In this document: piece after piece, positions 13,940 to 64,000 of the stretch | Layout of the letters: every line of letters starts with the position of its first letter | Numbering within the stretch: the stretch's first letter is position 1 | Assembly: GCA_951406725.2 (NCBI GenBank) | Contig: OX597819.1 | Location: 135,346,001 to 135,410,000 of the forward strand | DNA length: 64,000 bases | DNA from: Octopus vulgaris | Taxonomy: Eukaryota | Direction of reading: 5' to 3' | Notes under the pieces: model-generated | The model's input: the letters and a program-made list of their open reading frames with translations, nothing else | What the model was told of the DNA's origin: nothing | The model's database searches: none | Translations under genes and position numbers: made by a program

Positions 13940-16900
13940 TTTTTCTTCTTTCTTTCCCGTCTGTCTTGATAGACAATGGGTCGCGCCAAGGGTGGGGCCT
14001 ACTTTGATGATGAACAGCGTCTGCTGTGACTGAACAGTCCAATTCTAGAGTGGCAGTCCCTGGTACAGTTGCTGCACACGAACATCGATGGGTACGTGTG
14101 GGGTGTTGCTGCAGTTTTCCTCCTCCTGTCCTGCCTGTCCGACCACAGCTGTGCTCTCCTTTCCCCAGCCATGGAAACGCCTTTCCTCACTGTCCGACGC
14201 CAGGCAGAGCGGTCAGCAGCTGTTACCTCCCACGTGTCCACACAGATGTTGGCAGTCCTCAGGTCGCGCTTGCACACATCCCTGTATCGTAGCTGTGGAC
14301 GTCCCTTGGGTCGGGATCCCGTGGTGAGTTCGCTGTACAGGATGTCTTTAGACATGCGACCGTCCTGCATGCGGCAGACGTGTCCGAGCCAGCGCAGTCG
14401 TCTCCGCACGAGGAGGGCATGCATGCTTGGCATATTAGTCTGTTCTAGGATGACTCCGTTTGGTACTCGGTCCTTCCAGGAGATGCCAAGGATCCGTCGA
14501 AGACACCGCATGTGGAAGCCGCTGAAGCGGCATTCTTGCCGGGTGTATGTTGTCCAGCTCTCGCTGCCGTAGAGTAGGGTGCTCAGCACGCAGGCTCGGT
14601 ACACTGCGATCTTGGTGGTTATTGTGAGCATGTTGTTTTCCCACACTCTCCTGGAGAGCTTAGCCATGGAAGCAGCAGCCTTCCCAATCCGTCTGTTCAG
14701 CTCCGGCTAGAGAGACAGGCTGCTGGAGACCGTCGATCCCAGGTAAGTGAACTCGTTCACCACCTGCAAGCTGTGGTCGCCGACACTGATGTTGGGGACC
14801 CCTCCGACGTCCTGGCCCATGATCTCTGTCTTTTTCAGGCCGATGGTAAGGCCGAACTCTTGGCAGGCATCCGCCAGGGAGCTGACCAGCCTCTGGAGAC
14901 CCGGCTGGTTGTGTGATGTTAGGGCAGCATCGTGAGCAAAGAGGATCTCTCTGAACAGCACCTGACGGACTTTGGTCTTAGCTCTGAGGCGCGCAAGATT
15001 GAACAATCCACCATCAGCCCTGGTGTGGAGGAACACTCCGTCGTCGGACGTTCTGAAGGCATAGGACAGGACAAAGGAGAAGAAAATTCCGAAGAGCGTC
15101 GGCGCCAGAACGCAACCCTGTTTCACTCCACTCTGGATGGGGAACGACTCCGAGGACGATCCGTCAAACTGCACTGTTCCCTGCATACCGTCGTGAAAGG
15201 AAGTGATGAGTTTCAGCAGTCTGAGAGGGCAACCTATCCTACCCAGGAGCGCAAACAGCCCCTCCCTGCTGACTGAGTCGAACGCCTTAGCCAGGTTGAT
15301 GAAGGCCACGTATAGGGGCTGTCTCTGTTCTCGACTCTTTTCTTGAAGCTGCCTGAGTGAGAAGATCATGTCGATTGTAGATCTCCCTGCCCTAAAGCCA
15401 GACTGAGACTCGGGGTACACACGCTCTGCAAGCATTTGCAACCTCTTCAGGACCACCCTGGCAAATGCCTTACAGACAGTGCTGAGCAGTGATATGCCCC
15501 TGTAATTATTACAGTCGCTTCTGTCCCCTTTGTTTTTATACAGTGTGATGATGTTTGCGTCACGCATATCCTTAGGGACAGAGCCCTCCTCCCAGCACTG
15601 ACAGAGCAGCTCGTGGAGATGGCCCAGAAGGGCTGGCTTCCCGCACTGGATGACTTCTGCGGGGATGCCGTCTTGCCCTGGTGCCTTGCCCCGAGCGAGT
15701 GAGTCAATTGCTTTGCTCAGTTCTTCCTTTGTTGGAGGCAGGTCAAGCTCCTCCATGACAGGCAGAGCAGGAATGCCGGCGAGGGCAGACCTGATGACCA
15801 CATTCTCAGTGGAGTAGAGGTTCTGGTAATGCTCGACCCACCTCTCCATCTGCTTCGCTTGGTCCCTGATGACCTCGCCATCCCTGGACTTCAGTGGAGC
15901 AACCTTGCTGACAGTGGGCCCGAATGCTTTCTTCATCCCCTCGTACATCCCTTTCACGTTACCACTGTCAGCACAGCACTGGATGTTCTGGCATAAGTTC
16001 TGCCAGTAGATGTTGGCGCAACGTCTGGCCGTCCTCTGGGCGTCGCTTCTGGCTGTTCTCAGAGTAGCCAGGTTCTTTTCTGATGGGTCGCGCTTATAGT
16101 TGACCAGTGCTTCCCTCTTGGCAGCAATGACAGGCTCCATCTCAGGCAGGTGAGCTTCAAACCAGTCTTGATTTCTCCGCTCCCTCTTTCCTAGGGATGA
16201 CATGGCTATTCTGCAAGTGGTGTCGCGAATAAGCTGCCATCTCTCCTCGATGGACGTGGCTGCGTGTTCTTTAAGGGCCTCCTCCATGCAGTTGGTGAAT
16301 TCCGAGCGGAGGTCGGGGTTGGTTGTCCTGGCGGTGTTGATGCGTGGGCGGATTTTCCCTACGGGACGGCGGATTTTCTTTGGGGCCAATCGGACCCTGC
16401 TGCACACCAGAGAGTGGTCTGTATCACAGTCAGCACCATGGTAGCTGCGTGTGAGAAGCACACTGCCGAGGTGGGCTCGCCGGGTGATGACCATGTCCAG
16501 TTGGTGCCAGTGTCCGGACCTTGGGTGCCTCCATGAGACCTGGTGTTGTGGCTTAGTCATGAAGAATGTGTTGGTAACGCAGAGTTTCCGGTAAGAGAAA
16601 AGCTCCAACAGTCTCTGGCCATTCTCATTCATCTTCCCCACGCCAAAGCGTCCAAGGCAATCTGACCATGCCTCATGATCGGATCCCACCCTTGCGTTGA
16701 AGTCGCCCAGAAGAAAGATGGGCCCCGACCCTGGTATCTAGCTGATGGTGGCGTCGAGCTCCTCATAGAACCGGTCTTTTATTTCCTGAGGAGAGTGGAG
16801 TGTTGGGGCATAAGCACTAATTATGTTTACCTTCCCCGTTGATGTTGCAAGGCCAAGAGTGAGGATGCGCTCTGAGCCATTTGAAGGAGGGATCGCCATG

Positions 16901-18060
16901 GGGAGCAAGCTGTTCCTCACGGCAAACCCCACGCCATGCTGGCGGGCCTCCTCGACGGGTCTCCTCGACGGGTCTCCTCGACGGGTCTCCTCGACGGATC
17001 TCCCCTGCCAGTAGAAGGTGTAGTCCTTCTCCCGTAGCATGCCGTCTGCGGCGAGCCTGGTCTCTTGCAGCGCCGCTATGTCGATGTTCAGCCTTTTCAA
17101 TTCGGTGTTGATGACTGCTGTCTTCCTACTGTCGTTCATCTGTCGCAGATCGTCAATGATGCCAGGGCACATGGTCCTGACATCCCAGGTGGCCAGTCGC
17201 AAGACTGGTGACTGGATATTTGTTTTTCCTTTGTTTGCTGGTGCAGGGTTTTCAGTCTGCTTTTCAGATTTTGTCCTAGCTCCAAGCACCCATTGAAGCG
17301 GGCAGTCTGTGGCGGGTCAGCACCATTATTGGCCGGGGGCTGCCCAGCTTAAGGCGGGCGGTAGCTGACCAGTGGGACTTCAATGATCCCTCCCACCGTA
17401 GCACCCGGGATTACGCCAATTCACCCGGGCTTAAAACTCGTAACTGCCATCTCAGCTTGTTCCATCGATGAAGTAGTTTCTCCATGGCGCAAGCCTGGAC
17501 GGTAGGAACGAAGACACTGGGCTGCCCAGACACCAGAATCTCCCTCTCGGACCCCCCAGACATAATCCAAAGGAATGCAGTGCAGTACGTTTGGAGTCTG
17601 GTTGGCTGCAGGAGTTGCCGGAAAAGGGTCAAGATTCGACACCCTACCGCCTTCGGGGCTCCACTCCGGATTTTCTGTCTGGGTTTACTCCCATAGCCTT
17701 TCCCCCTCCCAAGAGCATCCGCAAGGCAGCGGAGCGAGGGTTTGGAGTCAGAGTTTTCCTTCTCCTAGACTGGCTGCCAACCAAGGCTAACGAGCCCAGT
17801 CTGCCCACCTGGTTATACCGCCAAGCACCTGGTCGCGCCACACAGCAGGCTCAGTGAGAACAAGGGTACCGCGTGAAGGTGCTGCTGTGGATACAGTAGT
17901 GCAGGAGAGGCCATAAGCAAGAACTTTCCACAAGGCGCAGCCAAGTAGAAGTTCTGCAGCGATCATTACACCTGGAGAGGAGAGGCTATGAGAGACGCAA
18001 TCACTTTCCTTTGCCCCCCATCACTTTCCTTTTCCCCCCTCACTTTCCTTTGCCCCCCAT
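13940..18060 (-). mobile_element. Near-full-length RTE-clade LINE (APE endonuclease + reverse transcriptase)
   Basis: GC-rich island with 5'UTR motif GGCAGCCAGTCTAGGAGAAGGAAAACTCTGA, ORF 17289 to 13999, and a short 3'UTR CCATTGTCTATCAAGACAGACGG followed by a GAA-rich tail. Confidence 0.95.
13999..17289 (-). pseudogene. RTE EN-RT ORF broken by two in-frame TAG stops (16738, 14707)
   Basis: Three collinear same-frame ORFs with AALQETR, SAYAPT, LLGDFNARVG, NYRGISLLS, GVKQGCVLAPTLF and YLGS. Catalytic motifs are altered (FINL for FIDL; FAHD for FADD). Confidence 0.92.
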
Positions 18061-18489: not shown

Positions 18490-20285
18490 ACATGAACTAT
18501 AGAGGAGGTATTGTTGTGAGTCTGTAGGTTTGTGGTAGATGTCTGTTATGATGTGGTAGATGTCTGTTATAACAGACATCTACCACAAACCTACAGACTC
18601 ACAACAATACCTCCTCTTTAGTTCATGCCACCCAAAACACACCAAGACAAATATCCCTTTCAATTTAGCTAAAAGGGTATGCACCATTGTCTCGGATCCA
18701 AAAACACGAGAAATACGCCTTCAAGACCTCAAAAAAACACTATTACAACGTCAATATCCCTCCACCCTTATAGAGTATGGAATAAAACGCGCCGAAGAAC
18801 TAGACAACACTACACTGAAAACCACCCAACCTAACACCACACACAACCTCAAAATACTTCCATACATTTCCACCCACAACCCCAAAAATATCGAAGCATA
18901 CACCACAATCATACAAAACCTCAGTCTACTGTCAACAGACCCAAAAATGAAAAACATTATAAATACACACAAAATCCTCAAATGTAAAAGGCAACACAAA
19001 TCTTTAAAAACTCTTGACAAATGCCAAACTTCACACACCACATCCACCCCCAACAGTAAAAAAATGTGCACGCTCAAACTGTGGTACCTGCCCCTTTCTA
19101 CTTGAAGGCTCTGAATTTACCTTCAAACAAGGTACGAAGTTTAAAATCAAGACTAACTTCTCCTGTTCCTCCGAGAACCTTATCTACGTTCTCACATGCG
19201 CTGGTTGCCAACATAATTATGTTGGACAAACGAGTCTCCCGTTACGTAAACGAGTAACGGTGCATAAAGAACAAATAAATCTCCCAGAATACCGACAAAT
19301 TCCACTGAGTGACCACTTAGACTCATGTGCTAAAGACTTAAACCCCAAATTCTATATATTCCCCTTCTACCAATGTAAAGACGGGATCACCACACAGGAG
19401 AGAATTAACAAGGAGAATCTCTTTATTGAAAAATTCCAAACACAACTTAATATGCAAACTCCTCGTTGATCAAACTTCCTTTCTCTACCTCACTCTTCAT
19501 GGATGGACTAACACAAATATATAAAGATACCATGCATTCATCACTTCAAGCTAAAACTTATATTCTTTAAATATCATTTTTACTATTGTTGTTATTACTA
19601 TCATTTTTATTATAAATGATATGACAATTTGAAATGCAATTGTCTATGCAGATTTATATAATTAGAAAATAATATAAATAAAGTGTTAAAATCTGAAAGT
19701 TAAGATAACAAGCAATTATATAAAAAAGATAACGCAAATGAAGCTAAAATGATAATTTTATAATTTGGGTTTTACCAACAGCCCGTATTGAAGAACTCAA
19801 AAGAGTTGTCTCCCCTTACTCACAACACAGGAACTGAAGAACCACAATTACTACTACTTCCTGTCCTGCCAACATGCTGAATTAAACCACACAACACATG
19901 CTCTTAATCCCTTTGGATCTTAATACCACAAGGTAATTTTTTCGTGAACAATCATAAAACTCAAGATACACAACGAACTCACAATGTATCGGAGAACTTA
20001 TTTTTAAATTTTTGTACATTTTTATCATTATTCTTTTGCAAAAAACAATGCAATTTTCTTTTTTTCCCCTTTCTAATTTTTAAAAAAACTTATTAAAACA
20101 TAAATATTCTTGACAAGTCATACAATGACGAAAACCGGTTTAATAAATATATATTTATATATTTTATCAATTTCTCATTTTATTAAAATTTTCTTTCATT
20201 TGAGCATTCTGCATTTTTAAAAAAATTTTTCCTTACTTATCATTTCTCCACGTGCGGTCAACACAACCCCACCATTTATTGATCT
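18490..20285 (+). mobile_element. 5'-truncated Penelope-like element (probably Neptune-type): RT C-terminus + GIY-YIG endonuclease + 3' region
   Basis: TDIYHKPTDSQQYLLFSSCHPKHTK, Cys linker CARSNCGTCP, and NLIYVLTCAGCQHNYVGQT..LRKRVTVH. Frameshift near 19015. Confidence 0.9.
20104..20148 (+). ncRNA. Non-canonical minimal hammerhead-like motif in the Penelope 3' region
   Basis: TTGACAA-gtcat(aca)atgac-GAAA-accggtt-TA. Stem II is perfect and stem III palindromic, but the core is variant and stem I weak. Confidence 0.45.
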
Positions 20286-30833: not shown

Positions 30834-33800
30834 ATTGATTGATTGATTGATTCTAGTTTCAGCTTATGAGCTGTGGCCATGCTGGGGCACCGCCATTTGG
30901 TGTTGCTACTTGGTTTCACTTCATGGAGGCTTTCTAGCAACTGCTATTTGGTGCATGAGAGAGTTCGATGCAACTGCCCTCATCTGCCCCTCCTGCCGTG
31001 AAGTTGGTTCATCTGGGACACCTGACAGGAAGAGATCCAGCTTCATTTTAAAGACATCTGTATCCACCCCATGCAGGTCTCTCAGGTTCTTCGGGAGGAT
31101 ATTGAAGAGCTGTGGGCCTCGGAAGCCCAGGCTATCACAGAATCTTGTCCTACATCTTGATGGCAGGTTTGGAGTCCTAGGCACCACGCAGTGGCGCCCA
31201 GTTCTGGCATTTGCGTAACTCTCGATGCCAAAGTTCAGGACACTTCCCTCCAGGATCTTCCAGATGTATATTATGGCATATCTTTCCCGCCTACGCTCCA
31301 GGGAATATAATTTTAATCTCTTGAGTCTTTCCCAGTAGCTTACATTCTGCATAGAGGCTATCTTCTTTGTGTAGCTTCGTTGGATCGCCTCAAGTTCTGT
31401 GATCAACTTGACACTGGATGGTGACCATAGCTGAGAGCAATAGTCAAAGTGGCTTAGGACAAGTGTCTTCCAGAGGACCATCATGGTTTCTTGTTCTCTT
31501 GTTCTAAAGGTTCTAAGAATCCATCCAGCCAGCCGTCTACATTTCATTGTCAGTTTAGCAACATGTACATGAAAGGTCGCGTCATCACTCATGTGAATAC
31601 CCAGGTCACGCACTGATTGTGCCTCTGGGATTGCAATCCCTCCGGGTCCAGTGTATTCATTGGGTATTGCATTCAGTTTTGCATGCTGATAGTATAAAGC
31701 TTGAAACTTTCCAGCATTGAACTGCATGCTATTCTTTTCAGCCCACTTGTATATTTCGTCCAGCTTACATTGCAGGTGTTTAGTGTCCTCAGGGTTCTGT
31801 ATTGCCTGTGAAACTTTTGTATCATCTGCATAACTTGTGATCGTGGCTCTCTGCGTGGCTGAGGGAATGTCTGAGAGGGCCATTATGAACAGTAGTGGTC
31901 CCAGAACAGTGCCCTGCGGAACACCGCTCACTATTTGTGTGTTAATGGAGGTGGCCCCATTGGCTACTACCACCTGACTTCTGTCCTTCAGAAAGTCATG
32001 AAGCCATTCTCCCAGTTTTCCAACTATGTTGAGATCACGCAGTTTGTGACATATCATTCCATGATCGACTTTATCAAAGGCCTTTGCAAAGTCGAGATAT
32101 ATCACTTACACATTTGAGTGGTTGAGCAGCCGTTTCAACACCCAGTCATAGTGTTGTAGGAGCTGAGTTAAACAGCTTCTCCCTGGTCGGAAACCATGTT
32201 GGGTGTCGGGCAGCAAGTCATTCTCTTCAAGGAAGGTGATCAGCTTCCTTCTGACTATTCGTTCCATGACCTTGCTGATGTGTGAGGTCAGAGAGATAGG
32301 TCTATAGTTCTTGGCTTCCGCTCTGCTACCTCCTTTATGAATGGGGCATATTTTACCTTCCTTCAGTTTTCCTGGAAGTTTGCCAGCTGCAAGGAAGCTC
32401 TGAAAGAGGAACTGCAGTGGTCTTGCTAGGACTCTCTTACATACTTTTAGGAGGATTGCCGGGAATCCATCGGGGCCAGTAGCTGAGTCTGTTTTCATTT
32501 CATCTATAGCCTTGGTTACATCGTCTTCCTTTATATCGATGTAATCTATCGTCGCCGCCTCTGATTTTATATCTGCAGTGGTAAAAAAGTCAGTTGGATT
32601 GGTGATTTGGAGATGCCCAAGGGGTGGAGTGAAAACACTTTTGAATTGCTCATTCAGTATTTCACTTACCCTCATTGGTTTTCCTGTAAGTGTGCCATCC
32701 TTTTCGAGGAGTGGCCCTATTCTACAGTGCACTGTAGCTGTTTCTTTGGCATACCTGTAGAAAGCTCTGGGGTTAGATTTTATGTTTTCTATAGCCCAGG
32801 CTTCTTTGTCTGCTCTTTCTTTTTCATGGGAGAGTTGCAGACATTTTTCGATTTCCAACAGTTTTATTTTTAGGCGGGACTTTTCACTGCTTTCAATCTG
32901 TTTGTTTAGGCGATTTGAAAATTTTGTACGCCGTCTCATTAAAATTTTCCTCTCTCTGGGGATTTTGTTCTTGTGTACAGTGGCCTTTCTCTCTGGGACA
33001 CAATTGTAGCATATGGCTTGCATTACAGACATGAATTGTTGAAGTTTCACGTCGATGTCTGGCGAGGAGAGACATTTAGGCCAGTTTTGTTTGAGGATCT
33101 CTTTCTCGATTTGTTTCCAGTTTGCCTTATGGTAGTTTAAGCTGGAAAGATTTTGAGGGTTTCTTGTAGGCTGCATGTCCGTGCTCTCTTTTGGCCCGTA
33201 CATGGTCAGCTCTATCATGTTGTGATCCGAGAGTAGTGTCGGTGTCACTTTCACATTATGGATGAGATCCATGTCATTTGTGAAGCAGAGATCCAGTGTG
33301 TTACCTGCCCTGGTTGGTTGGAGTATTACCTGCTCCATGTACAGGGTGTTGATGAGGTTCAGGAGGGACCTCGCCTGTCCTCGTTCACATCTTGTCATTC
33401 CTGGGAGAGAAAGGCCCTCGGGCCATCTGACATTGGGCAGATTGAAGTCTCCCATAAGAAGTACACTTATGTGTTGTTCTAATGTGGTTAGAATTTCTTC
33501 TATTTTTATAAGGCAGTCTTCAAACTTGCCCACATGGCTTGGGGCATCTGGAGGGCGATATGTAGCACACACAACTACATCAAGTTGCCTAATATGTACA
33601 ATTAGTGTGTCACACACCGAGTTTGAGTATGACAAGAGGACCTGGGGTGTGAGGTCCTCACGGATGTACATAGCAACACCTCCATGACTCCTTTCTTTCC
33701 TGTCGGTCCGTAGTACAGCATACTGTGGTATGTGTAACTCCGCATCTGCTATGTCCGGTTTCAGGTGCGTTTCTGTAAGTGCTATGCATATGGCTTGATT

Positions 33801-33875
33801 GCATGTAACAAAGTCTCTCAGGAACTGGATCTTTGTCCTGTTACTGAGTGTTTGCAGTCCTCTGATGTTCAGTAG

Positions 33876-33880
<5 letters not shown>
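30830..33880 (-). mobile_element. CR1-group LINE, truncated at the start of the endonuclease, with intact 3' end and (ATCA)n tail
   Basis: LLNIRGL..ALTETHL..MGDFNLP..LSDHN (APE); NYRPISLTS, YLDFAKAFDKVDH, GVPQGTVLGPLLF, YADDTK (RT). Confidence 0.93.
30921..33880 (-). pseudogene. LINE ORF2 (EN-RT) with a single in-frame TAA at 32106
   Basis: ORFs 33671-32106 and 32105-30921 are contiguous and in frame; YADD is intact. Confidence 0.9.
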
Positions 33881-33911
<31 letters not shown>

Positions 33912-36098: not shown

Positions 36099-36600
36099 AA
36101 AGAAATCAACAGAAAGAGAAGAAAAGAACTGATACACAAAAAAAAGATTCAAAGAAAACTAGAGAGAGTGGGAAGAGGGAGAGAAGAGAGAGAATTGGGG
36201 ACACAAAAAATAGAGTTAACAATTATTAACTATCACAACAGCAGGTTATGAAGTATTTCGTGAAATTTCGACAGCTAGATGTTTGTTCTCAAGATAAGGT
36301 TTGTTTTTCTTTACCTTGAAAGTACAGCCTAGTCTTCTGGAGAACATTATTTCCAATATATTTACAGGCAAAAGTCTGGTAAAATTCTAAGAAATATAAG
36401 TTTGTAATTTTATAAAAAACATTACTTCAAACATAGGCGCAGGAGTGGCTGTGTGGTAAGTAGCTTGTTTACCAGCCACATGGTTCCGGGTTCAGTCCCA
36501 CTGCGTGGCACCTTGGGCAAGTGTCTTCTACTATACCCTCGGGCCGACCAAAGCCTTGTGAGTGGATTTGATAGACGGAACCTGAAAGAAGCCCGTCGTA

Positions 36601-36637
<37 letters not shown>

Positions 36638-36642
<5 letters not shown>

Positions 36643-37262
36643 AATTAGTAAATAAATGGCACAACTAAGTACCGATATTTACTGGAAATAGCGAACGTAA
36701 AAATACGACGCTAATGTGTAGCTTCACCGCGTATGTATTAGCAAAAATGCGTGTGTGCAACAAATTAGAGAAAAAACCCGTCTTACCTCCAGGGAGAACA
36801 TCTGAAAGATGAAACACCCGGAAAAGGATAATGTGGTACCTGCAGGTTTCAGGTTTTACAAGATATGTCTCTCACCCATATTTTGTTTTACCTTCATCAG
36901 CCAAACATATACCAAGACGAAATCTACGATGTTACCACATTAATACTAACACACTCGACTGAAATGCGGAACGCTAACAGTACGAGAAACGGCGAAGAAG
37001 TTTCAAATATCAGTAATGCAATACAAAGTATTGCCTTCCAGTAAAAAGTAGCTCGTGAGGGAAAAATACACAAATTAGTAAATAAATGGCACAACTAAGT
37101 ACCGATATTTACTGGAAATAGCGAACGTAAAAATACGACGCTAATGTGTAGCTTCACCGCGTATGTATTAGCAAAAATGCGTGTGTGCAACAAATTAGAG
37201 AAAAAAACCGTCTTACCTCCAGGGAGAACATCTGAAAGATGAAACACCCGGAAAAGGATAAT
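36638..37262 (-). mobile_element. Retrozyme/pLTR-like 1.5-mer, 430-bp period
   Basis: 36638-36832 is repeated almost exactly at 37068-37262; a hammerhead abuts the repeat; no ORF. Confidence 0.8.
36831..36908 (-). ncRNA. Type I hammerhead ribozyme
   Basis: rc: atgtttgg-CTGATGA-aggt..(acaaaatatg/catatcttgt extension)..acct-GAAA-cctgcagg-TA-ccacat. Canonical core with palindromic stem III. Confidence 0.85.
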
Positions 37263-37732
37263 ATATATATTCGTGTGTGTGTTTGTGTGTCTGTGTTTGT
37301 CCCCCTAGCATTGCTTGACAACCGATGGTGGTGTGTTTATGTCCCCGTTACTTAGCGGTTTGGCTAAAGAGACCGATAGAATAAGTACTGGGCTTACAAA
37401 AGAATAAGTCCCGGGGTCGAGTTGCTCGATTAAAGGCGGTGCTCCAGCATGGCCGCAGTCAAATGACTGAAACAAGTAAAAGAGTAAAAGAGAGAGATAT
37501 GTATGTATATTGTCCATTTGCACGTATTATATTGTGTATGTGTGTATGTGAGAGTGTTTATCAGTGTATGCTTCTGTGTATACTGTGCCTAGTATATGCA
37601 TGATCAAGTACTTTAGATTCAGATGAATATGGTACTTAAGTTAAAGGCACCAGAATTTGGTATGGTACTATCCATATAAATCAAATGGGGTGATTATAAT
37701 CAAAATAAGCAACAAGGATATCCAAAGTTAGT

Positions 37733-40670: not shown

Positions 40671-43600
40671 GAGTTCCAGTGATTCGGCTGAGGTGACTAA
40701 CCTGGTAGGCGCGTATCTATTAAAATGCATAAATAGGGATATCCCAGAATTACAAGGTGGTTTATATAGGGATGATGCTCTGTTTGTTATCCCTAGTAAT
40801 AATAAATCTAGTATAGAAAGGATTAGAAAGAAAATTAATAAGTTCTTTAAGGATTTCAACCTTAGCATAACGTATGAACCTGGCACTAAAATAGTTAAGT
40901 TCCTAGATATTACGTTAGACCTTAACTTCAAGCTGCATTACCCATTTAGAAAGGAAGGTGAAATCACGAGATACGTAAATAAATTATCCAATCATCCTCC
41001 AAATATAATTGAATCTTTAGTCGGAAATATTCACTAAGAATCTCAAAATAATCATCCAATAATGATATATTTAACTCTCATTCTGAGCATTATAATGCGA
41101 CGTTATCTAGGGCAGGATACAACCAAAAGATTACCTTTATTGATAAGAGGAGCTTACATATTCCTAATAAAGAAGATATCAGTAACAACGTAAGCAGCAA
41201 TATAGACAACGCCCGAAATAGAAGTAGAAGTAGATTTAAGGTAACTGCAAATCTAGCGTACAAGCCCAATCATACAAATAGAAACATAGACCAAAGCATA
41301 AGTAACGCAGATAAAATCAAATTAGATAAATCAAAGAAGCATACAAATAATAGTAATAAATACAATGACACTGGTGAGAATATTAATAATTCAACGAACC
41401 CTAATTCTAATTCAGGAAATTTAATAAGAAAGATATAATCTGGCTGAATATTCCTTTCAACTGTGCGATTCTATCGGATATACAGAGCAAATTCAAAGTA
41501 ATTCTAGAAAAAAATTTCCCAATCTCCCATAGATATCATAGAATTATTTCTAAAAAAACAGTTAGGATTTCTTATTCAACCCTCCCAAATATGTCCACTT
41601 TAATAGCTAAGATTAATAATAATAACATTAAGCTAGCCAGGAAAGATAAAAATAATACCAACATGAATACCAATAACAATTATAATAATACTATCAAAAA
41701 TAATGGCAATAAACGCAACAATAGTAACTATCAAAACATGGGTAGAATCAGTAACCACAGAATGACTAATAATAATATTAATATTAATAGGAGTAATAAT
41801 GTTAATAATAGAAGTAAGACTAATAGAGAAATTACAGGGAATGAAAACATCAGTGATATCTATAACAACAATATACATTCAGATAAAAATACTAGCAATA
41901 ATAGTTACAATACCAATAATGTAAGTAATCATGGTAGGACTTTAGATCTAAAGGATGGAGCAAAAGGTTCAATAAATAATAACACTGCTTTAGATAACAG
42001 CACTAACTATAATAATAATAATAATAATAACGATAAATATACTCATGATAATCAAAATAATAGGAACATGAGACATCTATCCATGAATAATCCAACATCT
42101 GAAGTTGACCCTCCTACGTGTAATTGTAGAATTAGGTCAAAATGCCCGGCACCTGGTCTATGCGGGGTAAATAACGTAATCTATAAATGTACCATAACTA
42201 CTGAGAATAACAAATTTTTTTACATTGGTTGTACTGTAAATTTTAAGAAAAGAGTTAGAAACCATATCTCATCTTTTAACTTACGTCATAAAGCTGGTAC
42301 CACCACGCTTTCAAATAAGATCTGGGAACTCAAAAATAATAATAGTAATTATAACCTTAATTGGGAAATAGTTAGAAGAGCAATGCCGTATAAAAATAAC
42401 AGGGTTGGTTGCCAACTCTGCTCCATGGAGACGTATGAAATTCTAATGCATAGAAAAAATAAGAGTTTGTTAAATAACCATATAGAATTAGGTCAATTTT
42501 GTGTTCACGCAAAATTGAAGACTCTAAAATATTTTAAATGAATAACAGTATATAATAATCGTAAGGAGATAGATAGATAGATCTAGCTTGTTTTTTTACT
42601 AGTAAAGCATAACTTTAATATATTTTTAAAATAGATAACTGCGAGCTGTTACACTATGTTTATCTCTTTCTTTATAACTGTACCTGATTTTGAACACAAA
42701 GAAACAAATAGTACTTGTACGTTGCTTAAATGAAGTTTTAATTGACTTGATAGTTAATTCTAAATTTTAATTTTTAATTTAATCTAATTTTTAATCTAAT
42801 TTAGGTAACACAACTCAAATAAAATAAGTTAATGATACTTCATAATTCTATTACAAAATTTAATAAGTAATGCTACTCCCTTGAAAAATAGTATAAGAAA
42901 TTTCAATATAATAAGCAATTCCCTCACACCTTGTAAACTGACTTCTAAGTATAAACCTGTAGTCGGTCAATGTATAGATAGTAACAACAACAATGTAATA
43001 CAGTAACAGTAATAAATAAATTAAATTAAATGACCTCTTTCTAGTATTGCACTCATTTTCTCTTAATGTATTTCCCTTTAATGATAGCCTTTGACCCCTC
43101 AATCCCTTACCCTGTTCTCTCTTTAGATTCTCATATCTGCTTTAGCTACATCAGGTTGGCAATTAATAGCTGTTTACTGGTCAAAAATAATATTCCCCTT
43201 ATAGCTCTTAGATTCCTGCAAATTCTAAGCCAGCCTGACCGTCTCAATATTTAAGAGACTTTTTTCTGTGTAGAGGGTTACCTGCGACCCCTTACCTCTC
43301 AGTTGTCACAGTATACTCTATGTGGGCGCTTTTTCTTTTTTCTTTTTTGTTTTCTTTTTTTTTTTTTTTTTTCTTCTTTTTTCTTTTTTCTTATTTTCTT
43401 TTTTTCTTCTTTTCTTTTTTCTTTTTTCTTTTTCTTTCTTTTCTTTTTTCTTTTCTTCTCTTTCCTTTTCTTTTCTTTGCTCCACAAAATTCCTTCAGCC
43501 TTTAGAAGTCATAACATAGCAGTTTTGTGAAGAGAACAGTAATGTGACAAATACCTTATCATATAGCATGAAATTATACCCACTTCATTGTGGATTAACC

Positions 43601-46210: not shown

Positions 46211-48144
46211 CGGTTAATATAGGGCGTTACGATTATCAGAAAATAAAAAAAAAATGTGTGTAATAGGTGTAAAACAACTTCCTATGAACGAATATGAAAA
46301 AAAAATTCGCGCACGCGAAAGGGGGTGGGGAGAGGCCTCGGAAAATTCACATCGGGAAGTTCCGAAAGCGTCTGAGGAGCTGACCCGGGCACCAAAACAA
46401 AAAAAAATAGTGTAATATGTGTAAAACAACTTGCTCTAAACGAATATGACAAAAAAATGCGCTCTCGCGAAAGAGGGGTGGGGGAGAGGCCTCGGAAAAT
46501 TTATATCGGGAATTTCCGAAAGCGTCTGAACCGGGCACAAAAACAAAAACAAAAACAGCGTAATAGGTGTAAAACAACTTGCTCTAAACGACTATCATGA
46601 AAAAAATGCGCGCTCGCGAAAGGGGGGTGGGGGAGAGGCTTCGGAAATTTCACATCTTCAGTCCACGGCCTTTAAACTAAGAAAAAATAGTGTAATTGGT
46701 GTAAAACTACTTGTTCTAAACGAGTATCAAGAACACACACTCACACATGAATCATAAAATCATATTTCGCAAAAAAAAAAATAAAGAGAAGAAATTCTGG
46801 AAAAAGTGAAGAAATGTTGGATCTCCGCCATGTGAATCAAAATACGTGTCAGAAACATCTTGAAATACTACAGAAATTATGTTACGAAAATGATAATGTA
46901 TACATACCTCTTTGAGTGGTCCATCGATAATGATGATAAAGAAATGAGTTGGATTTGAACTCAGAATATTGACTAACACAACTACATACTACAAGACTCA
47001 AAATATTCAGCCAAGTCACCACCCTTTAACTAGCAATAATAATAACATCAATAACATAACAGCCAAAAGATTTATTTGTTCTGAAAATAACAATCATAGT
47101 AAATAAATATGTTCTTTAATATTCACATTCATGTGCACAGTTAACCACACTTACATACAAACAGTCACGCATGCATAATACAGAACGGAACACATAAATG
47201 AAGGATGCATTACTTAGTATATATTACATCTAGAGAATTTTGATTAATAAGTCAAATATGCAAATTATAAAGATAATTAATTGCTTTACTAAACAGTGTT
47301 GTAAAGGTGAAAAAATAAATTTGGGAAAAAAATACACGCCAAAACTAATTAATAAAGGATAATTAGGGAAGGATTGACACAAAATAATAATTTTTTCTGT
47401 CTTTTTTCTGATAAATGCATCTTAATAAGTGAGAAGAATTGCATATATCTGAACTATTTCAAAGAAAAGCATAAATTTAATGTTTAAAATAGCTTTAACC
47501 AAGGAATGAGATCCAACATTTCTTCACTTTTTCCAGAATTTCTTCTCTTTATTTATTTATTTTTTTTTTTGCGAAATATGTACAAAAATACGGAGTTTAT
47601 GATTCATGTGTGAGTGTGTGTTCTTGATACTCGTTTAGAACAAGTAGTTTTACACCAATTACACTATTTTTTCTTAGTTTAAAGGCCGTGGACTGAAGAT
47701 GTGAAATTTCCGAAGCCTCTCCCCCACCCCCCTTTCGCGAGCGCGCATTTTTTTCATGATAGTCGTTTAGAGCAAGTTGTTTTACACCTATTACGCTGTT
47801 TTTGTTTTTGTTTTTGTGCCCGGTTCAGACGCTTTCGGAAATTCTCGATATAAATTTTCCGAGGCCTCTCCACCACCCCTCTTTCGCGAGAGCGCATTTT
47901 TTTGTCATATTCGTTTAGAGCAAGTTGTTTTACACATATTACACTATTTTTTTTGTTTTGGTGCCCGGGTCAGCTCCTCAGACGCTTTCGGAACTTCCCG
48001 ATGTGAATTTTCCGAGGCCTCTCCCCCACCCCCCTTTCGCGTGCGCGAATTTTTTTTTCATATTCGTTCATAGGAAGTTGTTTTACACCTATTACACACA
48101 TTTTTTTTTTATTTTCTGATAATCGTAACGCCCTATATTAACCG
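46211..48144. mobile_element. Foldback-like element: ~620-bp inverted arms (46211-46825, 47508-48144) built of ~150-bp tandem subrepeats
   Basis: Arms are near-identical reverse complements. Subrepeats start at ~46260, 46411 and 46560. ATTTTT flanks both ends (possible TSD). Confidence 0.75.
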
Positions 48145-62055: not shown

Positions 62056-62436
62056 CTAGCAGTATCGCCCGGTGTTGCTCGGGTTTGTTTCGACACCTTA
62101 GAACTGGAATTTTTGAAAAGGAAAATTTTGGCATTATATAGCTTGTTATTCTCTTTAAGTGAACATTTTTCTGGTTGAAATACACCGAAAAATGGCGTCA
62201 CAGCAGTAAAAAAAATCGTAAAAATTAGGGATTTTCATAGAAAAAAAGCAGCTTTTTGATGTATATAATTTTTGGTATTAACATGGTCCGATTTGAAAGG
62301 AAGGAAGAACAAGCCTTCTTCTATCATACTCTCAATTTTGGTCAACTTGCGCCGCAGGGTCTCAGAGGAGATAATGTTAGTTGAAGGCTACCAAACCTGC
62401 CATACACAGACAACTTCAGCTTTATATATAGAAAGA
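62056..62436 (-). mobile_element. Non-autonomous Helitron
   Basis: rc 5' A|TC, subterminal hairpin CCCG..CGGG (62068-62083), 3' CTAG|T. Confidence 0.8.
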
Positions 62437-64000
62437 TTGTTAATACTGTTACTGTTATTTCTTATTGTATCTTTTGCAGGTATTTTTTTAGGAATTCCAG
62501 CAATTGACCAGGATATTATCAAGAACGATTTCCCTTGTGACACAGTAAAACGGAGTTATCAAATGCTTTGTGAGTGGTTTATAAATTATAAACCAGAGGA
62601 ACATACAGTTGAAACCCTCAGAAAAGCCTTTAAAGATGCTGAGTGCTTTGCTGCCCTTGAGTATCTCTCATTAGATGAACGGTGAATTTCTGTGTAAATT
62701 CTGCTGTTGTTTACTCCAAGGTGAATGCTGACCAAAGAGAGACCTTTGACGAAAGTATAGAGAACCAAGAACCACATTCTCCAATGTGTCCTCCTTTACA
62801 ATGATGAGGTGTGGAGTGCAGTGGATTTAGCTACTAATTCTAGCAGATCTATCTCTCACATAAGAGATACCCTTCACTTGTTTGGTTCTTTTGTTAGAAA
62901 TTAACTTTTGAAATAAAGATAAACTTTGAAATATCCGTTCGTTGTTGTTGCCATACTTAATTGCCTCCTTAAACGCTTCCATTGTTATATCGGCAGATTT
63001 AACATCCTCCCATACGTTGATGGTTATCTACCTTCATTTATAGCTGAGAGTAGAATGCTTGGTACTTAAGGTTATCCGGAAAGTTCATGTCGATTATTTA
63101 AGGAAATTAGAAGAGAAAACAATATTATGTGATTGAATATTTATTCAACTAAATATGAACCATTTTGTTGCACAACCTTTCTCCTTTCTCCATTTTTCCT
63201 TCAACATAAAGATTCCAGCATCCCAGAATTGGCTCCTATGCCAGCTTCCAAATCCTGTTTTATGATTAGGTAATATTTGTTAAACCTTAAACCTCACTAA
63301 CCTTTTTCTGCAACTTTTCTGCAACAAATAAATAACAAAGTCATTTCAAGTTACTAAATTTGGAAATATTGACCTAGTTATACTCTCCCAAAATATGTGA
63401 CAGTAACAGGGATGTCCCCACAAAATTAGAGAGACAGACAGTTATAGGACGTGTCACACACACACACACACGTTTAAATACGTACACACAGGGAATCACG
63501 AGTTTAAAATGTTGTATAATAGACATATGCATGTACCCTGTATATATATATATTCATATGTATGCGTGTGTCTATGTGTGAGTATTTCTTTGCCGATAAA
63601 CATCAGAAAAGCCACCCACTCTGTCTCTCATGAAAGCTACGTATTCATAAAATACACCCTTCTCTGTGTATGTGTGTGTTGTATCAATGTATTTACAAAA
63701 GTATGTATGCAGCGCCGCGTGTTTATGACAGCTATATTATCATTAAAATCCCATTCTTGCTGATGTTCTCGCCTTCACTGATAGAATTCTCCCTCTCTCT
63801 TTGATACTCTCTTTCAGTCAAATTAGTACATTTTGCAACTTTATCATTTTAAAATTTTATTTGTTCCAATGCCCCTGGGTTGCACATTATAGATTTTTAT
63901 AGGAATCCAATTAGCTTATCACTTAACTGAATGTTAGTGTAACATGAACGGAAAGTTTCGTGAATATTGGTTCATTGGTTTAAACATTAAGATGGTAAAA

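What the first reader, a model, noticed from the sequence alone, without database searches (positions are those of the whole stretch)
36638..37262. 430-bp 1.5-mer whose start coincides with its own hammerhead cleavage site
Seen: on the minus strand the insert begins about 4 nt downstream of the predicted GUA cut site, runs one full 430-nt monomer ending in a canonical hammerhead, then repeats about 195 nt. No ORF. Inference: this is what reverse transcription of a self-cleaved or circular monomer RNA would leave, i.e. a non-LTR retrozyme or solo pLTR insertion.
Basis: partly seen in the sequence, partly recalled or inferred. Interest (0 to 1): 0.75.

Follow-up and report, generated by a model that had tools for sequence, protein, structure and literature searches.

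The report
Retrozyme carrying Penelope two-start footprint
This is one of several hundred young copies of a 430-base non-coding repeat with a predicted self-cutting RNA motif; its copies end at two fixed points next to TA microsatellites, one point per arm in back-to-back insertions, which likely records a Penelope-type retrotransposon enzyme copying one small, probably circular, RNA from both cut DNA ends.

Summary
The anatomy is right: 430-bp period, 197-bp repeat, one type I hammerhead, no long ORF, start 4 nt past the predicted cut. The inference from the start is wrong. In 99 copies picked by their 3' end, 5' ends are scattered; 3 lie within 6 nt of the cut (3.0 expected) and 58 run through it. 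What is fixed is the 3' end: unit position ~197 or ~260, followed by (TA)n. Of 34 inverted partners of a 197-arm, 33 end at 258-262 and none at 197. A sister subfamily (13 of 13 pairs) and an active Penelope-like element (10 of 11 pairs) follow the same short/long rule. This is the Penelope 'tail' and two-site internal initiation on a non-coding retrozyme. Repeats and arms within one insertion share rare variants (26 vs 3.6 in controls), which favours one template, probably a circle. Stem II shows compensatory changes. Cleavage, circles and the partner enzyme are untested. It is a new member of animal non-LTR retrozymes with an informative footprint. This scan already noted the same pattern in other families of this genome and in other genomes.

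The parts
36638..37262 (-). Whole insertion, single-armed: unit positions 5-430 then 1-~199 (about 1.45 units)
36837..37262 (-). First unit, 5'-truncated by 4 nt (positions 5-430), joined to the upstream (TA)n stub through AT overlap
36638..36836 (-). Second, partial unit (positions 1-~199), one mismatch to the first
36831..36908 (-). Type I hammerhead motif: stem I (bulged), CUGAUGA, 43-nt extended stem II, GAAA, palindromic helix/loop III, predicted cut after GUA (36837|36836). Activity untested
36636..36640 (-). Proximal 3' end site (unit position 197-201), used by this copy; inferred reverse-transcription start 1
   Evidence: 148 exact junction matches in the genome
37005..37009 (-). Distal 3' end site (unit position 258-262), internal in this copy, used by inverted partner arms elsewhere; inferred reverse-transcription start 2
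   Evidence: 46 exact junction matches; 33 of 34 inverted arms
37007..37069 (-). 63-nt 'tail' between the two end sites; includes a 7-bp hairpin (37018-37034) whose stem is kept in the sister subfamily while the loop changes
36599..36638 (.). (TA)n microsatellite at the 3' junction, likely target; any target duplication is hidden in it
37263..37270 (.). (TA)n stub at the 5' junction, at the end of a flanking interspersed (SINE-like) repeat
18505..20284 (+). Separate 5'-truncated copy of an active (TA)n-targeting Penelope-like element (RT thumb region, GIY-YIG at 19008-19469, hammerhead-like motif ~20105-20146, long-type 3' end). Same end rule; no sequence likeness to the 430-nt unit; candidate kind of helper only

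Best explanation
This is a single-armed copy of a young, dispersed, non-coding 430-nt hammerhead repeat (non-LTR retrozyme) that is likely pasted into (TA)n microsatellites in trans by a Penelope-like (PLE) reverse transcriptase-endonuclease, which likely starts copying at two fixed internal sites of a probably circular unit-length RNA. Shown: the family, its (TA)n junctions, the two fixed 3' ends 63 nt apart, random 5' ends, read-through of the cut site, the rule of one short and one long end in head-to-head insertions, and the same rule in an autonomous PLE of this genome. Inferred: (1) transcripts with two hammerheads cut themselves and the monomer is ligated to a circle; (2) a PLE protein, probably a dimer, binds one RNA at two hairpin-flanked sites (197 and 260) and nicks both strands of self-complementary (TA)n; (3) the first DNA end is extended from site 197 and may run on round the circle (copies up to 1045 nt in the sample); (4) in about a third to a half of events the opposite DNA end is extended from site 260 on the same RNA and the two cDNAs join by a few shared bases, giving a head-to-head insert with the tail on one arm; otherwise the single cDNA is joined to the upstream flank, often through TA/AT overlap. 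This copy is such a single-arm product; that it stopped 4 nt from the cut is coincidence.
For: Family: 1237 candidates, 57 matches among 40 scored, best copies 91-100%; 148 exact 197+(TA)n junctions, 46 exact 260+(TA)n, 118 exact cut-site junctions, reversed-pattern controls 0. In 99 3'-anchored arms (first 100 of 148 listed places, two duplicate loci merged): lengths 27-1045 nt, 58 cross one cut site, 9 cross two; 34 have an inverted partner (33 loci, L082 counted twice), 33 ending at 258-262, 1 at 247, 0 at 197. Conversely, 23 of 27 loci picked by the 260 end have an opposite arm ending at or near the proximal site (19 found by the script, 4 by eye or). Sister subfamily (453 exact matches), picked by an internal word: 13 of 24 loci two-armed, all 13 short+long; all 11 scored as single end at the proximal site. 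PLE-A: 10 of 11 loci with both ends in view are short+long, tail ~48 nt; PLE-B also has two ends 32 nt apart. Within-insertion segment pairs share 26 non-majority alleles vs mean 3.6, max 9, in 300 between-copy controls; this includes alleles seen in 1 of 85 and 1 of 44 copies on both inverted arms, and a private allele on both tandem units of L005. 13 of 32 inverted junctions overlap by 2-7 nt vs 16% expected, p=7e-4. 9 arms are 424-436 nt, i.e. one unit, vs 1.3 expected. 5 of 34 two-armed entries would need a linear template longer than the longest arm in the sample. Hammerhead: 3 stem II pairs change on both sides, one with three pair types; core varies only at N7 and the cut base among the 43 variants collected by a pattern that fixes most core bases. 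Circular fold z=-4.2. Literature: PLE RT starts at two internal sites whose interval is the genomic tail (PMC11167929); tail on one of the inverted pLTRs (PMC3846280; PMC8557442).
Against: No circle, cleavage or expression was shown. In vitro the anole PLE used uncut RNA and did not need its hammerhead, and its two start sites did not differ between target strands (PMC11167929); the first point favours a linear template, the second does not predict the asymmetry seen here. None of three active PLE families examined shares sequence with the unit, so the helper is unidentified. Allele sharing within an insertion can also come from a homogeneous tandem master or from later gene conversion, and 81 within-copy sites are discordant. 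The unit-length excess coincides with a TA-like stretch at 193-203, so microhomology can explain it. 18 of 32 junctions were scored with a gap rather than an overlap, partly through nearby mismatches. Covariation rests on two related subfamilies, hence few independent events; the pair-count measure was not above shuffles (335/500). A 2.7-unit arm (1140 nt, 91-93% identical to this unit) exists at L117, so long linear templates are possible. Li et al. saw cleavage in only 1 of 9 predicted retrozymes tested.
Confidence: 0.62

Rival explanations
1. Same PLE enzyme and same two start sites, but the template is a linear, uncut read-through transcript of a tandem genomic copy; the hammerhead and any circle are bystanders.
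For: Uncut RNA was the dominant substrate in vitro and hammerhead mutants inserted normally (PMC11167929). Autonomous PLE-A shows the same end rule and overlapping arms. Genomic arms of 1045 nt and 1140 nt exist. Helix III is short and palindromic, a type said to cut poorly as a monomer (PMC4209133).
Against: On a multimer a second 197 site would be free upstream, yet 0 of 34 partner arms use it. Private alleles occur on both tandem units or both arms. No three exact cut-site junctions in tandem among the 100 of 118 listed. The hammerhead is kept with compensatory changes.
Confidence: 0.25
2. Inverted arms arise by fold-back (self-priming) of one cDNA or of an antisense template, with the tail set by endonuclease resolution, as proposed for rotifer PLEs.
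For: Proposed in PMC3846280 and PMC8557442. A few insertions have near-symmetric centres (L068, L003, L306).
Against: In 10 of 34 entries the two arms share no sequence at all (partner covers only ~215-260, main arm ends at 197 and is under 367 nt), which fold-back of either arm cannot make. Arm lengths are uncorrelated (rho 0.08).
Confidence: 0.06
3. One reading: the insert is a complete copy of a linear RNA whose 5' end was made by hammerhead cleavage.
For: This copy starts 4 nt after the cut; one sister arm starts at position 3 (L309). Five arms stop at positions 12-20, just short of the first cut.
Against: 3 of 99 near the cut equals chance; 0 of 99 at 197+-6 nt; the other two near-cut copies begin upstream of the cut; 58 of 99 read through it.
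Confidence: 0.04
4. Solo pseudo-LTR or stub of an autonomous PLE, or a local tandem duplication.
For: Same ends, target and hammerhead type as PLE termini.
Against: The unit closes on itself at 430 nt in many loci; no copy runs into shared or ORF-bearing upstream sequence; hundreds of dispersed loci.
Confidence: 0.03

Closest known systems
Animal non-LTR retrozymes (Cervera & de la Pena 2020, PMC7229834, parts 2-3 of 6 and passages read; Li, Clavereau & Pollet 2026, 10.64898/2026.07.22.740005, parts 1-3 of 5 read)
   Same: Short non-coding unit, type I hammerhead with short palindromic helix III, GC 38%, self-paired predicted fold, partial tandem copies, co-occurrence with PLEs.
   Different: Dispersed 0.1-2.7-unit insertions rather than long arrays; (TA)n junctions; two fixed 3' ends and head-to-head arms, which the text I read does not describe for retrozymes; 43-nt stem II; no sequence link to a PLE pLTR found, whereas 24 of 57 Xenopus families matched known elements, nearly all PLEs.
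Endonuclease-positive Penelope-like elements: inverted pLTR plus tail (PMC3846280, PMC8557442, passages read) and two-site internal initiation of Poseidon_Ac (PMC11167929, main text and methods read)
   Same: 5'-truncated partial tandems, inverted copy at the 5' end, an extension on one end only, two start sites downstream of the hammerhead cut, AT-rich or (TA)n target.
   Different: No ORF; tail 63 nt instead of 30-40; near-strict assignment of one site to each arm, whereas in vitro the sites did not differ between target strands; tail described there as optional, without counts in the passages seen.
Non-autonomous Chlamys PLEs such as MRC1 (PMC8557442, passage read)
   Same: Non-coding PLE passengers forming pLTRs and head-to-tail copies.
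   Different: Those resemble autonomous families at the 3' end, and the clade is reported to lack canonical hammerheads.
LINE-1 twin priming (search listing only; details recalled)
   Same: Two target ends prime on one RNA and the cDNAs join through short shared sequence, giving a 5' inversion.
   Different: In L1 (recalled) the second primer lands at variable sites upstream of the first product and arms barely overlap; here the second site is fixed, lies downstream of the first, and arms can overlap by hundreds of bases.

Membership tests
Animal non-LTR retrozyme | Type I hammerhead in each repeat unit | tested here: met
   Motif, 43 variants and stem II covariation; Rfam did not detect it
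Animal non-LTR retrozyme | Short non-coding unit, GC below 50% | tested here: met
   430 nt (above the 170-400 of PMC7229834, within the 51-972 of Li 2026), GC 38%, longest ATG ORF 25/59 aa
Animal non-LTR retrozyme | Head-to-tail repeats in many genomic copies | tested here: met
   58 of 99 arms cross a unit junction, 9 cross two
Animal non-LTR retrozyme | At least two consecutive complete hammerheads ('active' criterion of Li 2026), this copy | tested here: not met
   This copy has one; other family copies have two
Animal non-LTR retrozyme | Self-cleavage in vitro | not testable with these tools
   Bench assay needed
Animal non-LTR retrozyme | Expression as abundant circular RNA | tested here: inconclusive
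   Only contigs of runs guessed to be RNA were available; they cannot show circles, strand or level
Autonomous EN+ Penelope-like element | ORF with RT and GIY-YIG endonuclease | tested here: not met
   No ORF in the unit; none upstream of copies in shared form
PLE-mobilised non-autonomous element | Two 3' ends separated by a tail | tested here: met
   197 and 260
PLE-mobilised non-autonomous element | Inverted 5'-truncated copy and partial tandem structure | tested here: met
   34 of 99 entries; 13 of 24 sister loci
PLE-mobilised non-autonomous element | Sequence shared with the terminus of an autonomous PLE of the same genome | tested here: not met
   No significant match to three active families; other families exist and were not examined
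PLE-mobilised non-autonomous element | Target site duplication | tested here: inconclusive
   Junctions lie in (TA)n
Plant LTR retrozyme | Type III hammerhead in LTRs | tested here: not met
   Topology is type I, open at stem I

The most novel reading that the evidence does not exclude
A PLE protein dimer grips one 430-nt RNA circle at two structure-defined sites, each subunit extends one end of a double-strand break in (TA)n, always 197 first and 260 second, and the two polymerases run round the same circle with strand displacement. This one mechanism would explain retrozyme mobility, PLE tandem pLTRs, head-to-head inversions and the one-sided tail, with recognition by RNA structure and no sequence homology to the helper.
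Probability: 0.4. Interest if true: 0.75.

Novelty: new member of a known kind. Interest (0 to 1): 0.5.

Why it matters
Which enzyme moves animal retrozymes was left open by their discoverers (LINE or PLE) and is argued so far from co-occurrence and pLTR phylogeny. How PLEs build inverted ends with a one-sided tail is also called unresolved. This family carries the PLE start-site signature on a tiny RNA with no ORF, in hundreds of copies about 1% diverged, and gives a near-strict short/long rule. That supplies a 430-nt substrate and sharp predictions (start positions, strand assignment, circle versus linear) for the existing in vitro PLE assay. The element itself is of a known kind, and the scan has noted the pattern on other DNA.

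Tried and rejected
Rfam: no hit at gathering score in the window, no hammerhead at E<=10 in 36500-37400. Expression: no RNA holder listed; 14 holders were only guessed to be RNA. Contigs of four such runs cover the unit and some bridge the cut site, but beside neighbouring repeats the unit was not deeper than in a large run of unknown, probably DNA, kind; no verdict. Helper search: PLE-A (753-aa frame), PLE-B (775-aa frame) and PLE-C show no significant likeness to the unit. A pattern for the same helix III with a shorter stem II found 0. A 75% relative beside L012 appears single-copy. PLE fragments near L005, L008, L041 are separate neighbours. The first DNA search ranks copies by coverage of this insert and so overstates starts near position 1; I replaced it by 3'-anchored sampling and dropped L012, L019, L030 and L117, which lie outside the listed range. 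An alternative 10-bp helix over the cut site (unit 325-334 with 428-7) is in the sequence but is not in the minimum-energy folds. The low mutation rate of core positions (4 of 708 vs 181 of 8705) is inflated by subfamily variants and was not used. The isolated hammerhead segment is not unusually stable (z=-1.0). PMC12602865 held nothing relevant. Paper searches found no description of two fixed ends or a short/long rule in a retrozyme; subscription journals and Repbase were not searched, and supplements of Frangieh 2024 (Fig. S2), Craig 2021 and Li 2026 were not seen and may bear on this.

Full report
Observation. The minus strand of 36638-37262 holds a 197-bp direct repeat at a spacing of 430 with one mismatch. 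A type I hammerhead motif spans 36908-36831: bulged stem I, CUGAUGA, a 43-nt extended stem II, GAAA, a palindromic helix III and GUA, with the predicted cut between 36837 and 36836. The insert begins at unit position 5 after a short (TA)n stub and ends at position ~197-201 in a 40-bp (TA)n run. The longest ATG frames are 25 and 59 codons. Rfam does not detect the motif. The unit folds better than shuffles, linear (z=-4.4) and circular (z=-4.2).

Family. The window lies in a 2.8-Gb genome. A DNA search gave 1237 candidates; of 40 scored, 57 matches came back, the best at 91-100%. Exact patterns found 148 junctions of position 197 with (TA)n, 46 of position 260 with (TA)n and 118 intact cut-site junctions, with 0 in reversed controls. 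Copies differ from the majority by about 1%. A sister subfamily, about 85-90% alike with a unit of 425-431 nt, has 453 exact matches to one 30-mer. It is not a local duplication.

I took the first 100 of the 148 listed 197-junctions, which are not selected by 5' end; two duplicate loci merged, leaving 99. Lengths run from 27 to 1045 nt. None is 197+-6 nt, the length of a cleaved linear 3' fragment. Three lie within 6 nt of a cut site, this copy included, against 3.0 expected if uniform round the unit (p=0.20 without the index copy). The other two begin 5-6 nt upstream of the cut. Fifty-eight cross one cut site and nine cross two. 5' ends instead gather near TA/AT words (positions 156-160, 355-357, 192-203), and 30 of 65 single arms have TA directly upstream. 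The start at the cut is coincidence.

What is fixed. Of the 99 arms, 34 (33 loci) have an inverted partner at their 5' end. Thirty-three partners end at 258-262 followed by (TA)n, one at 247, none at 197. Taken from the other side, the first 30 of 46 matches to the 260 junction fall in 27 loci, 23 of which have an opposite arm ending at or near the proximal site; 19 were scored by script, 4 read by eye or. In the sister subfamily, sampled by an internal word, 13 of 24 loci are two-armed, each with one proximal and one distal end, and all 11 scored as single end at the proximal site (one of them, L297, shows a short distal partner by eye). Thirteen of 32 inverted junctions overlap by 2-7 nt against 16% expected; 18 were scored with gaps. 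In 10 entries the arms share no sequence, which rules out fold-back for them. Each end site lies shortly after a hairpin whose stem is kept while the loop changes in the sister subfamily.

The same rule in autonomous elements. The window also holds a truncated Penelope-like element with a GIY-YIG frame. Its family is young and abundant (150 scored matches at 99-100%), has a 4.6-kb unit with RT and GIY-YIG, ends in (TA)n about 100 or 150 nt after a hammerhead-like motif, and 10 of 11 loci with both ends in view have one short and one long end. A second active family has two ends 32 nt apart; a third also ends in (TA)n. None shares significant sequence with the 430-nt unit, so the helper is not named.

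Template. Within one insertion, tandem units and inverted arms share 26 non-majority alleles against a control mean of 3.6 (max 9), and differ at 81 sites against 120. Alleles seen in one copy only sit on both arms of L068 and L104 and on both units of L005. Nine arms are one unit long against 1.3 expected, though TA overlap at 193-203 could cause this. Five of 34 two-armed entries would need a linear RNA longer than 1045 nt if the arms were laid end to end, but a 1140-nt arm exists at L117. That the partner never uses a second 197 site fits an RNA with only one such site. These points favour one unit-length template, probably circular, without proving it.

Ribozyme. Among 43 distinct variants, found with a pattern that fixes most core bases, the 5' core differs only at N7 and the cut base is A or C; helix III varies in length but mostly stays self-complementary. 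On 28 of these variants, chosen by me to span both subfamilies, three stem II pairs change on both sides, one with A-U, G-C and U-A; 96.7% of cells pair against 13-39% in slid controls, while the pair-count measure does not exceed shuffles. The events are few because the sequences are related. Activity is untested.

Mechanism. Shown: family, target junctions, two fixed 3' ends, random 5' ends, read-through of the cut, short/long rule in retrozyme and PLE. Inferred: cleavage and circularisation; binding of a PLE protein at two sites; nicking of both strands of (TA)n; extension from 197 and, in two-armed events, from 260 on the same RNA; joining by short overlaps. I put PLE mobilisation at about 0.85, one shared RNA for both arms at about 0.7, a circle at about 0.6-0.65.

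Comparison. Cervera and de la Pena (PMC7229834; parts 2-3 of 6 and passages) defined animal non-LTR retrozymes, showed circles in coral, mussel and axolotl, and left the mobilising enzyme open. Li et al. (10.64898/2026.07.22.740005; parts 1-3 of 5) argue PLE origin from co-occurrence and pLTR phylogeny. Frangieh et al. (PMC11167929; main text and methods) showed two internal start sites that bound the tail, no strand difference, and no need for the hammerhead. Arkhipova et al. (PMC3846280, passages) and Craig et al. (PMC8557442, passages) describe the tail on one of the inverted ends. Cervera 2014 (PMC4209133, passages) proposed circular templates for PLEs. Searches found no account of this footprint on a retrozyme or of a counted short/long rule; supplements and Repbase were not seen. 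L1 twin priming is cited from a listing and recall.

Earlier notes. After I had recorded my reading, a look-up showed that this scan reported two-armed retrozymes with two fixed ends in other families of this genome and in other genomes.

Verdict. A real, ordinary-class element (new non-LTR retrozyme family) whose headline feature, the start at the cut, is chance, but whose 3' ends give a clean and testable record of PLE-type copying. Interest 0.5.

Noticed in passing
window 18505-20284 (+): Truncated copy of a very young, abundant (TA)n-targeting Penelope-like element with a short 5' inversion; its hammerhead-like motif reads UUGACAA in place of CUGANGA, i.e. a U3-A8 pair instead of C3-G8.
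   Followed up: partly
L229:3785-3835 (PLE-B): Second active PLE family (775-aa frame, 88 near-identical scored matches) with a minimal hammerhead-like motif reading CCGAAGA and a GUAC palindrome; two 3' ends 32 nt apart.
   Followed up: partly
Unexplained.
   Followed up: partly
L127-L130 (G000:C3 near 174.87 Mb): Micro-array of unit positions 226-260 alternating with (TA)n, at least 9 copies in one locus and 6 in another 5 kb away: a satellite born from a distal-end stub.
   Followed up: no
L008/L009, L041, L038: Retrozyme copies sit directly against PLE copies through a shared (TA)n: in L008/L009 and L041 upstream of a 5'-truncated PLE in the same orientation, in L038 tail to tail. Either serial insertion into the same TA run or template switching.
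   Followed up: partly
L008 and L009 (G000:C6 32.21 Mb and C1 85.25 Mb): Same insertion with the same flanks on two contigs: segmental duplication or co-mobilised block.
   Followed up: no
L012:1098-1342: A single 75-78% relative of unit positions 12-190 with its own (TA)n end, next to a normal copy; no second copy found.
   Followed up: partly
window 13999-17316 (-) and 30921-33911 (-): Two LINE-type elements with apurinic endonuclease and RT frames, each interrupted by stops.
   Followed up: no
window 46240-46656 and 47698-48108: Two 152-153-bp tandem arrays (2.7-2.8 copies) whose consensus units look reverse-complementary, about 1 kb apart: possibly the ends of an inverted-repeat element.
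   Followed up: no
window 62269-62685 (+): Weak Death-domain match (E=0.0025, below cut-off), possibly an exon.
   Followed up: no
window 41411-42541 (+): 376-codon stop-free frame with no Pfam match at E<=0.01.
   Followed up: no
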